DNA from: an uncultured archaeon
GTDB lineage: Archaea; Asgardarchaeota; Lokiarchaeia; Sigyniarchaeales; SOKP01
DNA: 32,431 nt
NCBI GenBank assembly: GCA_964525635.1
Contig: CAZGJX010000044.1
Span: 1 to 32,431 of the forward strand
Direction: 5' to 3'
A model generated the notes under the pieces. The model did not search any database. It was given only the letters and a program-made list of their open reading frames with translations, and was not told where the DNA came from. The position numbers and the translations under genes were made by a program. Shown here in pieces: positions 11,385 to 19,730 of this stretch. Position 1 is the stretch's first letter. Each line of letters begins with the position of its first letter.

Positions 11385-12482
11385 TTAATAATCAATCATA
11401 TCGAGGGTTTTTTGAATAACTTTTGGTCTATCTTTCTCATATTCAAATAATTTTAGACATTTATAAAAGCTCTCAACTAAAAATTTTGTATTTTTCTCAA
11501 CTCTCTCTTTATTAAGATGATGATCTTTGCAAAGTAAATGAAATATTCTTGTTGTATTAGGTGGATTCCAATAAAGGGCATCAAAATTACTTAAAACTTC
11601 AGGTAAAAGAAAGATTTTTCTGATTTCCATTATTAGATTGTGATTCAGAGCTGAAAAGTCATAATTTTCTTTCTCACCTGTTATTATTGATTCTATATTA
11701 TTGTATTTCTTAATGAATCTCAGAGCAGTTTTTGGACCAATCCCTTTTATTCCTTGAAAATAGTCTGTCTTTAAGAGTATTGCCAAATCAATTAATTGAA
11801 ATTGATCTATACCTATGATTTTTAGACTCTCTCTTAAATCTATATATTGTGGTTCTATCTTAATGTATGTCCATCTTCCATGTTCTTTTCTTTTCAGTGA
11901 TTTCGAAAGGTTCTGTATTAATCGAGGACAACCAAATAGAAGGGAATCAAAATCTTGAGAATTTGAAAAGTGAGTAATGTGTTCCTTTACTAATTGAGCA
12001 GATTGTGCTTCTGCTGAGACAGGTGAATTAACTATAGGCACCCCAAGAGCATGTAATAATTGCTTTGATTCCTTTATTACGTTTATCCACATATATTCTT
12101 TCGATAAAGCTATTTTCCTAGCTAGCTCTTTATTGTCTTTTTCTATTGCTTGCTTATATCGTTTTTGAGCGAAACGAAAGTCATTAAGTTGGTTTTTTGT
12201 TTCTACACGTTTTAGTTGAGAGACTTTCCCATCAAAGCAAAATATAGGAAGTATATTCTTACTATAAAGAAATTTTATACGATAAAGTATTCCATAAAGA
12301 TGAGAAAATACTCTTTGTGTTCGATCAAGAAATAAATCCGTCTCATATATAGTGGTGTTCTTATGGGAAAAATTCAGAAAACTCATGATAATATTGGGGG
12401 CATCTATTGCTATGATTCTCCCCTTTAACTCTGAAAAGTCAATTTTTTGCCTCTGAATTATTGAATTTAATTTTACTCCCAT
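11385..12482 (-). CDS. fen: Flap endonuclease 1 / XPG-family nuclease (divergent paralog)
   Basis: MGVKL, IAIDA, FCFDG, AEAQ, SQDFDSLLFG, TDY, H3TH GIGPKTA, C-terminal PIP-like QKTLD. Confidence 0.85.
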   Translation of the reverse strand: MGVKLNSIIQRQKIDFSELKGRIIAIDAPNIIMSFLNFSHKNTTIYETDLFLDRTQRVFSHLYGILYRIKFLYSKNILPIFCFDGKVSQLKRVETKNQLNDFRFAQKRYKQAIEKDNKELARKIALSKEYMWINVIKESKQLLHALGVPIVNSPVSAEAQSAQLVKEHITHFSNSQDFDSLLFGCPRLIQNLSKSLKRKEHGRWTYIKIEPQYIDLRESLKIIGIDQFQLIDLAILLKTDYFQGIKGIGPKTALRFIKKYNNIESIITGEKENYDFSALNHNLIMEIRKIFLLPEVLSNFDALYWNPPNTTRIFHLLCKDHHLNKERVEKNTKFLVESFYKCLKLFEYEKDRPKVIQKTLDMIDY

Positions 12483-12665: not shown

Positions 12666-12867
12666 TGGATTTTTTATTTAAATATATACACTAATATTAT
12701 AACTAAGAATTAAAAAAAGAAAATAGATTTTTTCGTTATTAAATACCATTGATCAAAACCCTGGACTTGTAACCCTTTTTTTCTAATTTTTTAATTTCTA
12801 ATTTTCTCCTTCTTTTTTTTTTCCTTTAAATAATCTCATCTGAAGTGATTAGTAATTAAAAAAAACA

Positions 12868-14149
12868 TTGGTGAATAAAATTTCAGATTTAAGCCAAATA
12901 AAAGGAATAAACTCAAGACATATTAAACTTTTAGAAGAAAATGGTATATCTACCGCTGAAATGTTAGCGATGTCTTCTCAAAATAGTGTTGCAGACATCA
13001 ATGGGCTTGGAGATAAGACTGCAAAAAAACTTATTTGGAGTGCCCGAGATGCCTTAGGAATGACTGATTTTACTTCTGCTTCTGAGATGGATGACAATGT
13101 AGAATATTTCACTACAGGGTCTTCTGAACTAAATCGCATTTTAGGAGGAGGATTTCAAACAGGAAAATTAACTGAAGTGTATGGGCCCTTCAAATCAGGA
13201 AAAACTAATCTTTCTCATACACTTGCTGTAACTGTTCAATTACCAAAAGGAAGGGGAGGATTAGAAGGAGCTACAGCGTATATAGATACTGAGAATACAT
13301 TTTCAAAAAAGAAGATTGAACGTATCTCTAAACGATTTTCCCTTAATCCCAAAGATGTCTTAGGAAAGATCCATCATGCGAGAATTTATAGTTCAGATCA
13401 TCAAGATCAAATGATACTCCAAGCGGAAAAATTATGCAAAACTCGAAATGTAAGGATGATCATCGTTGATAGCTTAATGGCTCTACTTAGAGCTGAATAT
13501 GTAGGAATCGGAATGCTTGCAAGAAGACAAAGTGTACTCAATAGTATGATTCACGGATTATCCAGAATTGCTGAAACATATAACGCAGCAGTTTTATTAA
13601 CGAATCAAGTTGCTACAAAAATGATGGGAATGTTCTCTGCCGATGATGCTATAGGAGGAAATAGTGATGCCACAGTTCATGGATCACTTCCAAATTGTAG
13701 CACATGGCTGTCATTTCCGTGTAATGTTTAAAACAAAAGGATTCTCATCAAATAAATCCTTAAAGAGACGAGCTGTTATTGTAGATGCTCCTGATTTACC
13801 TCCAGAGGAGTGTGAATTCTATATCACAAATGCAGGAGTTGCAGATTCGGAAGAAGTTAATATACCAACTACTCAGGAACTATATATAAAATTGGAAACT
13901 TTATATGAAGAAAGTGATGATTCAATAGGAGAAAATGATACAAAAAGTGGAAATATAACTAAAAAAAACCTATCACTAACAGATATAAAGGGAATTGGGA
14001 AGGGAACAGTGGTAAATCTTAACCAAGAAGGAATAAACAATGTAGAAGATCTATTAAAAGTAGATCCAAAAGAATTATCCTCAAAAGTTAGTGGTGTATC
14101 TGAGTCCAAGATAATTGAGTGGCAAAAAATCGCTACAACTAAAATTTAA
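12868..14149 (+). CDS. radA: RadA/Rad51-family recombinase, two exons (12868-13662, 13694-14149), ~416 aa, with an extra C-terminal HhH domain
   Basis: N-terminal HhH, Walker A GPFKSGKT, YIDTENTF, Walker B IIVDS, TNQV. Removing 13663-13693 joins the two track ORFs as IGGN|IVAHG. Confidence 0.88.
13663..13693 (+). other. Putative 31-nt bulge-helix-bulge mRNA intron in radA
   Basis: Central helix GGAA(13657-60)/UUCC(13688-91), 3-nt bulges AUA(13661-63) and AAA(13692-94), flanking stems. Canonical cut sites restore the frame. Confidence 0.82.
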
Positions 14150-17182: not shown

Positions 17183-18952
17183 TTGATGATTATTTACAAC
17201 TTATATTTCTTATTTTCATTATTTGTATTGATATTTACAACATCATATTATGTTGTAAAATATATCTATATTAAAAGAAATTATATCATAGGTGGCACAA
17301 ATATATACTATTTAGGATTATCTTTAGCCTTTATTCATATATCATTATCTATATCCATCATTTCTATCCTTTTTTTTAATATTAAAGAAGGGTATCATAA
17401 AGAGATACTATTTCAAAATAGTACTATATTTTTATGGGCTCTATCTCTAATTATCTTTTATTTTTCAAAATATATTAGACCAAAATATACAATGATTATG
17501 GATGTTCCTTCTCGATGGAAGATAAAAGGTACAATGAAATTAGGAAGGATTATATGGAAAAATAGACTAAAATCAAAATTTCATCTAAGTTTAGATGATT
17601 TAACTCAACATATGTTTATCACTGGAATAACAGGATCTGGAAAAAGTAATTTTTTGCAATCTTTTTTACTCGAACTTACAAAAAAACATAATGAAATCCC
17701 CTTTCTTCTTACAGAATTTAAGGGAGAATATCATCACTTACAAACAAAAATAAAAGATATGCTAATTCTCAAACCAGGAAAGAACTTTAGTATAAATATT
17801 TTTGATCCAGAAGGGTCAAATCCAAATATTCATGCTGAAAGAGTCTTTAGAATTTTTGAAAGTGGAGGATTATTAGACAATATTGAATATTCACCTCAAA
17901 TGGAAAAAGTATTCGTTGATATATTAAAAAAAATTATAAAAGATCCTAATTCAAGAAATTGGTCTTCTTTTAAAACCACTTCAGAGGGAGTGGGAAATGA
18001 TTCAAAAGATCCCTATTTTAAAAATAGTATTACTGCTGTACAAAATAGAATAAGAAGATACTATACGGGTAGTCTGCGAAGAATATTTAAATCAGACTCT
18101 AATTATAAGGTAAAGGATTTATTTAACTATAAAGTTCTTTTGGATTTATCTTCTATTATTGATTTAGGTGGGGAAAAAGAAGATGCTCTGTTTTTTCTTA
18201 ATATGATCTTAAAATACCTATGGGATAAAAATCTTGAAAAGGGAAGCAGAAATTATAAAGGGATTCAACATATTACTATTATCGAAGATGCCCAATACTA
18301 TGCACCCCAAGAACTCTCATCACGAACCAAATTGACTTCTTATTTGGAAGATATCGCTTTACTTTTAAGAGGGACAGGAGAATGTCTAATAACTTTAGCT
18401 ACGCGACCCAATATATCTAAAGAGATTCTAAACAATGCGGGTGTTCTTATCTGCTTTCAAATCCATATGCATAAAGAATTAATGCGAGAATTATTAAATC
18501 TACAAGAATGGCAAGTAAATTATTTATCAGAGTTGCAAAGAGGTCAATGCATAATAAGAGTGAATTCTATTGAAAAACCGTTTTTGCTACAAAATCGATG
18601 CGTTGATCGGTATTGGTTAACTAATAATGAAATTCTTGAAAACAATAATAAAATTATAAGAGATAATATTGTAGATATGGAAGAAAATATTGAAAATGGG
18701 ACTAAAAATTATATTTATGAGGGTAAAGAAATGAAAAAAATCAAAAGAAAGAAATTTAAAGATAAAGACGATTATCAAAATGGTATGCCAGACTATGAAA
18801 TTGTACTTTGTAAATTCTGCGGGAATGAAATCGATGGCCCTGATGGTTATTGTGCAAATTGTTCTACACCTTTAAAAGAAGAAGATAAAGATAGAATTGA
18901 ATTGGAGAATTTATGCAGACGGATCAAAGAAAGAGAGAGAAAAGAGAAATAA
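17183..18952 (+). CDS. Membrane-anchored HerA/VirB4-like (DUF87) ATPase with C-terminal Zn ribbon
   Basis: 3 N-terminal TMs, QHMFITGITGSGKS Walker A, INIFDP, IIEDAQ Walker B, LRGTG, ATRP, CKFC/CANC. Confidence 0.85.
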   Translation: MMIIYNLYFLFSLFVLIFTTSYYVVKYIYIKRNYIIGGTNIYYLGLSLAFIHISLSISIISILFFNIKEGYHKEILFQNSTIFLWALSLIIFYFSKYIRPKYTMIMDVPSRWKIKGTMKLGRIIWKNRLKSKFHLSLDDLTQHMFITGITGSGKSNFLQSFLLELTKKHNEIPFLLTEFKGEYHHLQTKIKDMLILKPGKNFSINIFDPEGSNPNIHAERVFRIFESGGLLDNIEYSPQMEKVFVDILKKIIKDPNSRNWSSFKTTSEGVGNDSKDPYFKNSITAVQNRIRRYYTGSLRRIFKSDSNYKVKDLFNYKVLLDLSSIIDLGGEKEDALFFLNMILKYLWDKNLEKGSRNYKGIQHITIIEDAQYYAPQELSSRTKLTSYLEDIALLLRGTGECLITLATRPNISKEILNNAGVLICFQIHMHKELMRELLNLQEWQVNYLSELQRGQCIIRVNSIEKPFLLQNRCVDRYWLTNNEILENNNKIIRDNIVDMEENIENGTKNYIYEGKEMKKIKRKKFKDKDDYQNGMPDYEIVLCKFCGNEIDGPDGYCANCSTPLKEEDKDRIELENLCRRIKERERKEK

Positions 18953-19010: not shown

Positions 19011-19730
19011 CTATAGCAATCCGTTTTGGTGAATATTATAACTAAATGCTTCTGAAAATACATTATGATAAAAATTAATTATTTTATCTCCTGTATTTTT
19101 TTTCTTTAAAAGTTCGATATTCAAAGCATTAATTCTACTAAATAGCTTGTTATTAAACATCACATTTCTATCTGTCTTAGGATTATAAGACACTTCATGA
19201 ATGAAAATTAGCTTAATTCCTTGATTTTCGCATAAAAAAATCAATGGAGCAATAATTAATTCGAAAAACTCATCTAATAAATTCTGTCTTATTTGGATAT
19301 TGGAGTAACTTGAAAGCTGAAATCTTAAGTGGTGTGAAATATTATCAATTACTAATATCTTCAATCCATATGGCAATAAAGCTGAATCTATTAATCTTTT
19401 TATAGCTTCTTTTTGATGAAGATAATCTCTAATCTTTACTTTAGGATAAATTAGCAATTTCTGCTGTAAATATTCTAGTCTCTCATTATCATTAGAATAC
19501 ATAGAAAATAACCTTTTTTTTGGAAAAAGTTCACTTGCTTGAATCCATATACAAGATTTCTTATTATTCTTATGTCTTAAAATAAAATTAGAACTTAATT
19601 GTAGAGCTAATGTTGTTTTGCCTGTTCCAGATTCTCCATATATATTAATAATTGAGAAATTGTAGAACTTTTGAGATAATATTGATACTAAATTAGTATT
19701 TTTATTTTTATTTTTAACAGAATTTTTCAT
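19011..19730 (-). CDS. RadB-like RecA-family ATPase
   Basis: INIYGESGTGKTTLALQ, LVIDNISHH; lacks the N-terminal HhH domain. Confidence 0.75.
   Translation of the reverse strand: MKNSVKNKNKNTNLVSILSQKFYNFSIINIYGESGTGKTTLALQLSSNFILRHKNNKKSCIWIQASELFPKKRLFSMYSNDNERLEYLQQKLLIYPKVKIRDYLHQKEAIKRLIDSALLPYGLKILVIDNISHHLRFQLSSYSNIQIRQNLLDEFFELIIAPLIFLCENQGIKLIFIHEVSYNPKTDRNVMFNNKLFSRINALNIELLKKKNTGDKIINFYHNVFSEAFSYNIHQNGLL

What the first reader, a model, noticed from the sequence alone, without database searches (positions are those of the whole stretch)
13647..13702. Canonical bulge-helix-bulge intron inside the radA mRNA
Seen: radA changes frame at the conserved IGGN/IVAH motif. The extra 31 nt (AGTGATGCCACAGTTCATGGATCACTTCCAA, 13663-13693) fold as follows: central 4-bp helix GGAA/UUCC, 3-nt bulges AUA and AAA on opposite strands, inner stem GUGAU/AUCAC plus CCA/UGG with a 7-nt loop, and outer exon-exon pairing (UGCUAU 13647-52 with GUAGCA 13697-702). 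Known: archaeal splicing endonuclease EndA cuts after the 2nd nt of each bulge and RtcB ligates. Those cuts give GGA GGA AAU|AUU GUA GCA CAU, an exact restoration. The well-established archaeal mRNA example is crenarchaeal cbf5. Inference: a spliced protein-coding intron in an Asgard-like recombinase. It may be a splicing switch (287-aa truncated vs ~416-aa active product), analogous to the ligase-dependent splicing of HAC1/XBP1.
Basis: partly seen in the sequence, partly recalled or inferred. Interest (0 to 1): 0.93.

Follow-up and report, generated by a model that had tools for sequence, protein, structure and literature searches.

The report
tRNA-type mini-intron in Asgard radA
A 31-base insert that breaks a RadA-type recombinase gene of a Lokiarchaeon-type (Asgard) archaeon folds into the RNA shape cut by the archaeal tRNA-splicing enzyme and is kept with compensating base changes in nine related genomes, so it is very probably an intron that must be spliced out of the mRNA, a kind published so far for the coding part of only one crenarchaeal gene (cbf5).

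Summary
Removing 13663-13693 (31 nt) joins exon 1 (12868-13662) to exon 2 (13694-14149). The two exons match the RadA profile at positions 3-269 and 270-315, with nothing missing or duplicated. The flanks fold as a bulge-helix-bulge (BHB): a 4-bp helix GGAA/UUCC, 3-nt bulges AUA and AAA, and an inner hairpin. Cutting after the second nucleotide of each bulge restores GGN|IVAH.

DNA contigs from three further salt-marsh samples carry the insert unchanged. A 31-nt insert sits at the same site in 11 gene copies from 9 of 135 family genomes (4 genera). About 78 other copies are uninterrupted.

Across the 11 copies the central helix is paired in every cell, and 5 of 8 inner-stem pairs show compensatory changes. 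Exon 2 stays open (145-151 aa) and under purifying selection.

The genome encodes two EndA subunits, RtcB and 18 intron-bearing tRNAs. It also has similar mini-introns in aIF2-gamma and RNase HII.

No RNA data were available, so splicing itself is inferred. The "splicing switch" idea is untested.

This scan has met the same radA intron in another genome, and other BHB mRNA introns in this genome and in other Asgard genomes. The searchable literature reports such an intron inside a coding sequence only for cbf5.

The parts
12825..12832 (+). TATA-like box TTTAAATA after a T-rich tract, 36 nt upstream of the start codon (possible radA promoter)
   Evidence: Read from the sequence. Function is inferred only.
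12868..13662 (+). Exon 1 of the RadA paralogue (265 codons; start TTG 12868 or GTG 12871): N-terminal HhH domain plus most of the Rad51/RecA ATPase core, ending ...DDAIGGN
   Evidence: Pfam Rad51 E 5.9e-59 and HHH_5. NCBIfam RadA NF003301 263.7 bits, profile 3-269. RAD51/RadA structures E 1e-54.
13647..13656 (+). 5' strand of the outer (exon-exon) helix h: UGCUAU 13647-52, 2-nt bulge AG, then G13655 and A13656 pairing with U13696 and U13695
   Evidence: This helix is built mostly from invariant codon letters and is weak or relaxed in 5 of 11 relatives.
13657..13660 (+). 5' strand of the 4-bp central BHB helix (GGAA, in exon 1)
   Evidence: Pairs with 13688-13691. Paired in 44 of 44 cells across 11 sequences, with one A-U to G-C double change.
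13661..13663 (+). 5' bulge AUA; predicted cut between 13662 and 13663
   Evidence: Geometry. The rule 'cut between 2nd and 3rd bulge residue' is from PMC2738675.
13663..13693 (+). 31-nt intron
   Evidence: Its removal makes the RadA profile matches abut at 269|270. Absent from about 78 orthologous copies and present in 11. Present in 3 independent DNA assemblies.
13664..13687 (+). Inner hairpin h': GUGAU 13664-68 with AUCAC 13683-87, CCA 13670-72 with UGG 13680-82, 7-nt loop
   Evidence: 97.7% of cells paired. 5 of 8 pairs have changes on both sides.
13688..13691 (+). 3' strand of the central helix (UUCC, last part of the intron)
13692..13694 (+). 3' bulge AAA; predicted cut between 13693 and 13694
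   Evidence: Invariant AAA in all 11 sequences.
13695..13702 (+). 3' strand of the outer helix (UU, then GUAGCA)
13694..14149 (+). Exon 2 (151 codons plus stop): end of the RecA core (IVAHGCHFRVMFKTKG...), an acidic linker and a second, C-terminal HhH domain
   Evidence: NF003301 profile 270-315. Pfam HHH_5 at residues 94-142. Open in all 11 intron-bearing copies. dN/dS about 0.11.

Best explanation
The 31 nt at 13663-13693 are an archaeal bulge-helix-bulge (BHB) intron inside the coding sequence of a RadA-paralogue mRNA. In the primary transcript, the last bases of exon 1 (GGAA) pair with the last bases of the intron (UUCC). This forms the 4-bp central helix, flanked by two 3-nt bulges on opposite strands, an intron hairpin on the inside and a short exon-exon helix on the outside. 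The host's heteromeric splicing endonuclease (two EndA-family genes) cuts after the second nucleotide of each bulge, and RtcB ligates the exons. That gives ...GGA GGA AAU|AUU GUA GCA... and a 416-aa RadA-type protein with N- and C-terminal HhH domains. The 31-nt intron is probably released as a small circle. Shown here: the anatomy, the exact reading-frame restoration, reality of the insert in DNA, conservation with covariation, selection on exon 2, and presence of the enzymes. Inferred: the cleavage and ligation themselves. The intron is old within one Lokiarchaeia-type family and has been precisely lost many times, or has spread among alleles.
For: (1) Exact abutment: exon 1 matches RadA profile 3-269 and exon 2 matches 270-315.
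(2) The BHB fold has z = -3.29. The canonical form is the MFE or within 0-4.3 kcal/mol of it in all 11 homologous inserts.
(3) Real DNA: contigs from three further samples span the insert with 0 differences and no gap.
(4) A 31-nt insert lies at the identical site in 11 copies from 9 genomes of 4 genera. Every other orthologous copy in 82 genomes has an uninterrupted 397-433-aa frame, apart from a few cut by contig ends.
(5) Covariation: 90.4% of cells are paired, against 25-53% when partners are slid. Seven pairs change on both sides, and 0 of 500 shuffles reach the observed score. The central helix is 100% paired, including an A-U to G-C change that uses the Gly wobble base. The inner stem has U-A to C-G, G-C to A-U and G-C to C-G/U-A changes.
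(6) Exon 2 is complete (145-151 aa) in all 11 copies. Its dN/dS is about 0.11, against 0.17 in intronless genes.
(7) The host has two EndA-family genes, one RtcB and 18 of 50 tRNA genes with introns. Asgard EndA is reported as the broad-specificity (alpha-beta)2 type (PMC5829648).
(8) The same genome has a strict 29-nt BHB insert splitting the P-loop Lys codon of aIF2-gamma, and a 30-nt insert with an in-frame TGA inside the GIDEAG|KGPV motif of RNase HII.
(9) The cut rule matches the published cbf5 introns (PMC2738675).
Against: There is no RNA evidence: no run on record as RNA holds the locus, so no spliced junction and no circular intron has been seen. The outer helix is short in the window (A-U and G-U, then a 2-nt bulge before 6 more pairs). 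In 5 of 11 relatives the 3' bulge opens into an 8-9-nt loop, so the motif is strict in some copies and relaxed in others. The outer helix shows no convincing covariation, because its letters are fixed by codons. The gene is an accessory paralogue, found in 82 of 135 family genomes, so inactivation would be tolerated more easily than for an essential gene. Frame 0 runs through the insert without a stop in all 11 copies.
Confidence: 0.85

Rival explanations
1. Broken or split gene without RNA splicing. On this reading the 31-nt insertion (for example a small palindromic element) inactivated the paralogue. Alternatively the two ORFs (287 aa and 161 aa) are made separately and act as a two-piece RadA.
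For: The genome has two other full-scoring RadA genes, and the paralogue is missing from 53 of 135 family genomes, so loss would be tolerable. In the window an ATG at 13667 lies in the exon-2 frame inside the insert.
Against: Exon 2 is intact and under purifying selection in all 11 copies across 4 genera. The insert keeps its length of exactly 31 nt and shows compensatory RNA pairing, which a dead insertion would not. In 10 of 11 copies a UAA in the exon-2 frame closes the insert, so the ATG seen in the window is not a conserved start. The break falls inside the GGN|IVAH core strand.
Confidence: 0.06
2. Translational recoding. On this reading the ribosome reads into the insert and shifts +1, or hops over it as in T4 gene 60, so no RNA processing is needed.
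For: Frame 0 has no stop inside the insert in any of the 11 copies. A +1 shift at the last insert codon (CUA-A) would enter the exon-2 frame. A conserved hairpin could in principle stimulate recoding.
Against: The ten insert codons change radically between copies. The third codon, for example, encodes A, V, N, F, K or E. The variation follows RNA pairing and not codon position. A 10-aa insertion would sit inside the most conserved core motif. The UAA in the exon-2 frame in 10 of 11 copies leaves a single possible shift site with no known shifty sequence. For bypassing, the only AAU landing codon (13693-95) keeps frame 0 and runs into the stop at 13729-31.
Confidence: 0.03
3. Regulated splicing switch. 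The intron is a BHB intron, but its removal is conditional, for example on DNA damage. The cell would then toggle between a truncated 287-aa form and the active 416-aa recombinase, by analogy with HAC1/XBP1.
For: Only circumstantial. The gene lies in a DNA-repair neighbourhood: FEN1/XPG, a HerA-like helicase and a RadB/KaiC-like ATPase. The unspliced frame gives a defined truncated product in all copies (285-295 aa).
Against: Most orthologues do without the intron. Similar mini-introns sit in housekeeping genes of the same genome (aIF2-gamma, RNase HII), where a switch is implausible. No dedicated sensor nuclease is indicated. The out-of-frame tail is not conserved.
Confidence: 0.08
4. Assembly or sequencing artefact.
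For: The window comes from a metagenome-assembled genome of 245 contigs.
Against: Contigs from three other samples carry the insert identically. Eight other genomes carry a homologous 31-nt insert at the same site.
Confidence: 0.01

Closest known systems
BHB intron in the cbf5 (aCBF5 pseudouridine synthase) pre-mRNA of Crenarchaeota (Watanabe 2002; Yoshinari 2006; Yokobori 2009, PMC2738675)
   Same: It is an intron inside a protein-coding sequence, with a BHB or BHB-like fold at the exon-intron borders. It is cut between the 2nd and 3rd bulge residues by a heteromeric splicing endonuclease. It sits in a catalytic or conserved motif and has a patchy distribution explained by lineage-specific loss.
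   Different: The gene differs (a RadA paralogue) and so does the phylum (Asgard, Lokiarchaeia-type). The length is fixed at 31 nt. Splicing is not yet shown at the RNA level. It is one of several mini-introns in the same genome, not a single case.
Archaeal tRNA and rRNA BHB introns (hBHBh' and relaxed HBh'/BHL motifs; Marck and Grosjean 2003, from memory; PMC5829648)
   Same: The motif geometry, the predicted enzymes (EndA, RtcB) and the small size are the same. The host has 18 intron-bearing tRNA genes.
   Different: The substrate is an mRNA, so splicing must precede or compete with translation, and the exon part of the motif is constrained by codons.
46-nt BHB intron in the 5' UTR of Haloferax volcanii HVO_1309 (Schwarz 2020, PMC7714728)
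   Same: An mRNA is processed by the splicing endonuclease at a BHB, and a circular intron is detected.
   Different: That intron lies in the untranslated leader and does not interrupt the reading frame.
HAC1/XBP1 unconventional splicing (Ire1 plus tRNA ligase/RtcB)
   Same: A short intron is removed from an mRNA by an endonuclease and a tRNA-type ligase, with a change of reading frame downstream.
   Different: The endonuclease (Ire1) and its stem-loop motif are different, and the process is stress-regulated. No evidence of regulation exists here.

Membership tests
Archaeal BHB (EndA/RtcB-spliced) intron | Two 3-nt bulges on opposite strands separated by a 4-bp helix | tested here: met
   GGAA/UUCC with bulges AUA and AAA. 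The helix is paired in 44 of 44 cells in 11 homologues.
Archaeal BHB (EndA/RtcB-spliced) intron | Flanking helices h' (inner) and h (outer) of at least 2 bp (strict hBHBh') | tested here: inconclusive
   The inner helix is met (5 bp + 3 bp, 97.7% paired). The outer helix is 2 bp (A-U, G-U) followed by 6 bp after a 2-nt bulge in the window. It is strict in about 6 of 11 copies and relaxed (3' bulge opened to 8-9 nt) in 5. Relaxed motifs are accepted by (alpha-beta)2 EndA according to PMC5829648.
Archaeal BHB (EndA/RtcB-spliced) intron | Cuts after the 2nd nucleotide of each bulge give a functional joined RNA | tested here: met
   Cuts at 13662|13663 and 13693|13694 join RadA profile positions 269|270 exactly. 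In G063 only these borders give N-I-V.
Archaeal BHB (EndA/RtcB-spliced) intron | Helices maintained by compensatory substitutions among homologues | tested here: met
   Seven pairs change on both sides; 0 of 500 shuffles reach the score; slid controls are 25-53% paired against 90.4%.
Archaeal BHB (EndA/RtcB-spliced) intron | Host encodes the splicing endonuclease and the RtcB ligase | tested here: met
   PF01974 hits at C18:18795-19022 and C105:10281-10529. PF01139 hit at C119:10187-11494. All are over the cut-off.
Archaeal BHB (EndA/RtcB-spliced) intron | Spliced RNA and excised (circular) intron observed | not testable with these tools
   No run on record as RNA holds the locus. No cDNA-like protein was found.
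Archaeal BHB (EndA/RtcB-spliced) intron | Precise presence/absence at the predicted borders among orthologues | tested here: met
   The same-genus G001 and about 78 other copies lack exactly these 31 nt. Metagenome contigs 88-92% identical to G110a lack them precisely.
RadA/Rad51 recombinase | Full-length match to the RadA profile (N-terminal HhH plus RecA core) | tested here: met
   NF003301: 263.7 bits for exon 1 alone (cut-off 259) plus 44 bits for exon 2. This is the third paralogue after C2 (454 bits) and C18 (432 bits), and it carries an extra C-terminal HhH.
HAC1/XBP1-type regulated unconventional splicing | Stress-activated dedicated endonuclease and condition-dependent splicing | not tested
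   No expression data. Mini-introns in housekeeping genes of the same genome argue against a dedicated switch.
Programmed frameshift or translational bypass | Conserved shifty site, or matched take-off and landing codons that restore the frame | tested here: not met
   Insert codons are not conserved. A UAA lies in the exon-2 frame in 10 of 11 copies. The AAU landing codon at 13693-95 stays in frame 0.

The most novel reading that the evidence does not exclude
The radA intron may be one visible piece of a lineage-wide layer of mRNA splicing by the tRNA-splicing machinery in Lokiarchaeia. In this reading its removal is rate-limiting or conditional, so that the recombinase paralogue is switched on post-transcriptionally (for example after DNA damage). 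Its patchy spread over four genera would then reflect lateral movement of the intron and not only loss.
Probability: 0.1. Interest if true: 0.9.

Novelty: new member of a known kind. Interest (0 to 1): 0.74.

Why it matters
In the papers I could search, endonuclease-spliced introns inside archaeal coding sequences are documented only for cbf5 of Crenarchaeota. A 2020 study still calls it the only case besides a Haloferax 5' UTR intron.

A conserved, covarying BHB intron in a recombinase gene, with similar inserts in aIF2-gamma and RNase HII of the same genome, has two consequences. First, the closest archaeal relatives of eukaryotes probably splice several mRNAs with their tRNA-splicing enzymes. 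Second, standard annotation mislabels such genes as frameshifted or truncated. Here a 287-aa 'RadA' and a 161-aa orphan would be called.

This bears on how intron-containing protein genes and RNA-ligase-dependent mRNA splicing could arise before the spliceosome. It also gives a concrete, testable substrate for Asgard EndA and RtcB.

Tried and rejected
(1) RNA evidence. The look-up of sequencing runs listed no holder on record as RNA, so expression and splicing could not be examined.

(2) Genome-wide scan of G000. I searched for strict BHB motifs (4+3+2 pairs, L 12-90) and kept those where excision fuses two long ORFs. This gave 1258 hits, against 1184 for a mirror-topology control. The background is AT-rich chance pairing at gene-gene junctions (all other C44 hits lie at ORF junctions). 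It swamps the signal, so no count of mRNA introns can be given. The scan did recover radA and aIF2-gamma.

(3) Search for a spliced, cDNA-derived protein. The best full-length relatives of the window's exon 2 are only 68% identical. Full-length proteins 95-96% identical to exon 2 of G110a lie on contigs with genes on both strands, so these look like DNA of intronless relatives.

(4) The same pattern in the other three families of the order found no further carriers. The pattern is exact, so divergent flanks would be missed. The protein census found no additional broken copy in the family.

(5) Rfam: no family matches 13400-13950.

(6) dN/dS: many pairs are saturated at synonymous sites. Only 7 intron-bearing exon-2 pairs were usable.

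(7) The careful tree search did not finish, so the quick IQ-TREE tree was used.

Full report
**The observation.** The window (contig C44 of a 4.45-Mb, 245-contig genome) carries a RadA-like ORF at 12868..13731 (287 aa). It leaves the conserved sequence right after ...DDAIGGN. A second ORF at 13664..14149 in another frame continues with IVAHGCHFRVMFKTKG....

Translating 12868-13662 and 13694-14149 separately gives P0001 (265 aa) and P0002 (151 aa). Against NCBIfam RadA (NF003301), P0001 covers profile positions 3-269 and P0002 covers 270-315. Pfam Rad51 is likewise split at 196/198. So exactly the 31 nt at 13663-13693 are extra, and no residue is missing or duplicated.

**The fold.** Reading 5' to 3':
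- An outer helix: UGCUAU/GUAGCA, plus G-U and A-U next to the bulge.
- The 4-bp helix GGAA(13657-60)/UUCC(13688-91).
- The bulge AUA (13661-63).
- An inner hairpin: GUGAU/AUCAC and CCA/UGG with a 7-nt loop.
- On the return strand, the bulge AAA (13692-94).

This is the topology of tRNA-intron BHB motifs, with helix, then bulge, then helix on each strand. [quoted passage not shown] It places the cuts at 13662|13663 and 13693|13694.

RNAfold gives -22.9 kcal/mol for 13640-13710 (z = -3.29, 0 of 200 shuffles as good). The MFE slips one A-U pair, and the canonical form is 0.7 kcal/mol higher.

**Is the insert real DNA?** Logan contigs from three further salt-marsh samples (X3, X5, X6) span 13663-13693 with no difference and no gap, and no joined form appears. 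The insert is not an artefact of one assembly.

**Relatives.** The genome belongs to a Lokiarchaeia/Promethearchaeota-type family, judging by the names sources give to homologues. A protein census of the 135 genomes of that family found this RadA paralogue in 82 of them, about 90 copies in all. Eleven copies have short frames of 259-295 aa. The rest are uninterrupted at 397-433 aa, apart from a few cut by contig ends. The intronless set includes G001 of the same genus, at 87% identity.

A pattern search (GGNGGNAAY, gap of 20-50, ATHGTNGCNCAYGG) found the same 11 copies. They lie in G000, G015, G056, G063, G110 (two copies), G113, G119, G124 and G127 (two copies), across four genera. Each has an insert of exactly 31 nt at exactly the same site. 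No carrier was found in the other three families of the order. Three further hits (G050, G051, G054) are uninterrupted genes with an upstream GGN.

All 11 copies have a complete exon 2 of 145-151 codons in the shifted frame. Where synonymous sites are not saturated, exon-2 dN/dS among intron-bearing copies is about 0.11, compared with 0.17 among intronless copies. Exon 2 is therefore translated in its own frame.

**Covariation.** I aligned the 11 sequences without gaps (A1) and counted pairs for the canonical structure. Overall 90.4% of cells are paired, against 25-53% when the partners are slid by 1-3 columns. Seven pairs change on both sides, and 0 of 500 shuffles reach the covariation score.
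- The central helix is paired in every cell. In G056 the A-U pair has become G-C, using the wobble base of the second Gly codon.
- The inner stem shows G-C to A-U (G113), U-A to C-G (G015, G124), U-A to C-G at the next variable pair (G124, G127a), and G-C/C-G/U-A alternation in the upper stem.
- The 3' bulge AAA is invariant.
- The outer helix is the weak part. It is built from codon-fixed letters (GC of two Ala codons, AU/GU of the Ile and Val codons) and shows no real covariation.

Per-sequence folding shows a strict hBHBh' in about six copies. In five copies the 3' side is relaxed, with the bulge opened to 8-9 nt. Asgard EndA is reported as the (alpha-beta)2 type with the insert that confers broad specificity (PMC5829648), and relaxed motifs are also the rule for cbf5.

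**The host machinery and context.** G000 encodes two EndA-family proteins and one RtcB, all above the Pfam cut-offs. ARAGORN calls introns in 18 of its 50 tRNA genes.

Prompted by earlier notes of this scan, I checked two other genes myself.
- The aIF2-gamma profile match starts only at profile position 19. Immediately upstream, my own motif scan had found a strict BHB with a 29-nt insert (C142:4667-4695, minus strand). Its removal gives GTG GAT CAT GGT A|AG ACC ACA, that is VDHGKTT.
- RNase HII contains an in-frame TGA inside a 30-nt hairpin. Its removal turns GIDEAGS*... into GIDEAG-KGPV.

So the radA insert is one of several mini-introns of 29-32 nt in protein genes of this organism.

**Evolution.** In a quick ML tree of 74 orthologues the gene tree follows the genera. 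The intron-bearing alleles are scattered: 8 changes are most parsimonious, and at least 3 are forced by well-supported branches. The 11 inserts are clearly homologous, with the same length and shared sequence. This points to one old gain followed by repeated precise loss, as proposed for cbf5. Lateral spread by recombination between alleles is the alternative.

G127 holds two intron-bearing copies and one intronless copy. Metagenome contigs 88-92% identical to G110a lack the 31 nt precisely.

**Rivals.**
- A dead or split gene is contradicted by the intact, selected exon 2, the fixed length and the RNA covariation. The ATG inside the insert (13667) is specific to the window, and 10 of 11 copies have UAA in the exon-2 frame at the end of the insert.
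- Translational recoding is unlikely. The insert's codons change radically between copies, and only one possible +1 site remains. The only matching AAU landing codon for a hop keeps frame 0.
- An artefact is excluded.
The gene is the third RadA-class gene of the genome (C2 at 454 bits, C18 at 432 bits, this one about 263+44 bits). Similar introns also sit in housekeeping genes.

**What is known.** Searches of the held literature found BHB introns in coding sequences only for crenarchaeal cbf5 (PMC2738675). A 2020 paper states that cbf5 is the only mRNA example besides the Haloferax HVO_1309 5' UTR intron it describes (PMC7714728). A 2026 preprint treats Asgard tRNA introns but not mRNAs. Rfam has no match.

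Earlier notes of this scan, which are AI notes, report three related things: the same radA intron in another genome, other mini-introns in this genome, and environmental RNA showing exact splicing of BHB introns in other Asgard genes. I confirmed the first two kinds myself and could not check the RNA claims.

**Verdict.** The best explanation is an EndA/RtcB-spliced BHB intron in a RadA-paralogue mRNA (confidence about 0.85). It is a new member of a known kind. Interest is high because of the lineage and because it is part of a wider set. It is tempered by the lack of RNA evidence at this locus.

Noticed in passing
G000 contig C142:4667-4695 (minus strand; outside the window): A 29-nt strict BHB insert lies directly upstream of the aIF2-gamma profile match, which starts at profile position 19. 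Its removal restores the P-loop VDHG-K-TT by rejoining a split Lys codon (A|AG).
   Followed up: partly
G000 contig C4:29572-30216 (minus strand; outside the window): The RNase HII gene has an in-frame TGA inside a 30-nt hairpin that interrupts GIDEAG|KGPV. The shape is BHB-like, but it was not caught by my strict motif filter.
   Followed up: partly
window 13973-14119 (+): This RadA paralogue carries a second, C-terminal helix-hairpin-helix domain (Pfam HHH_5, residues 94-142 of exon 2) after an acidic linker. Orthologues are about 400-430 aa, whereas canonical RadA is about 320 aa.
   Followed up: partly
window 11385-12482 (-), 17183-18952 (+), 19011-19730 (-): This is a DNA-repair neighbourhood. 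A FEN1/XPG-family nuclease is divergently transcribed from radA. There is also a HerA-like helicase (DUF87) and a small RadB/KaiC-like ATPase.
   Followed up: partly
window 12809-12832 (+): A long T-tract is followed by CCTTTAAATA, 36 nt upstream of the radA start. This is a likely TATA box and would give a nearly leaderless mRNA. An earlier scan note describes a similar T-rich TTTAAATA motif upstream of repair genes in another genome.
   Followed up: no
loci L041/L046 (G110) and L045/L047/L056 (G127): Two genomes hold more than one copy of this paralogue. G110 has two intron-bearing copies. G127 has two intron-bearing copies and one intronless copy. These could be true duplications or mixed strains in the bins (contamination 6-9%).
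   Followed up: no
window 13664-13693 (+): In the window the exon-2 frame is open through the insert (GTG ATG ... CAA), which gives the 161-aa ORF 13664..14149. In the 10 other copies the last insert bases form UAA in that frame. Frame 0 has no stop inside the insert in any copy.
   Followed up: yes
window 13494-13634, run X3 record 2: A 151-nt contig from another salt-marsh sample matches with 13 differences. This suggests a related strain, or a close relative's copy of the gene, in the same habitat.
   Followed up: no
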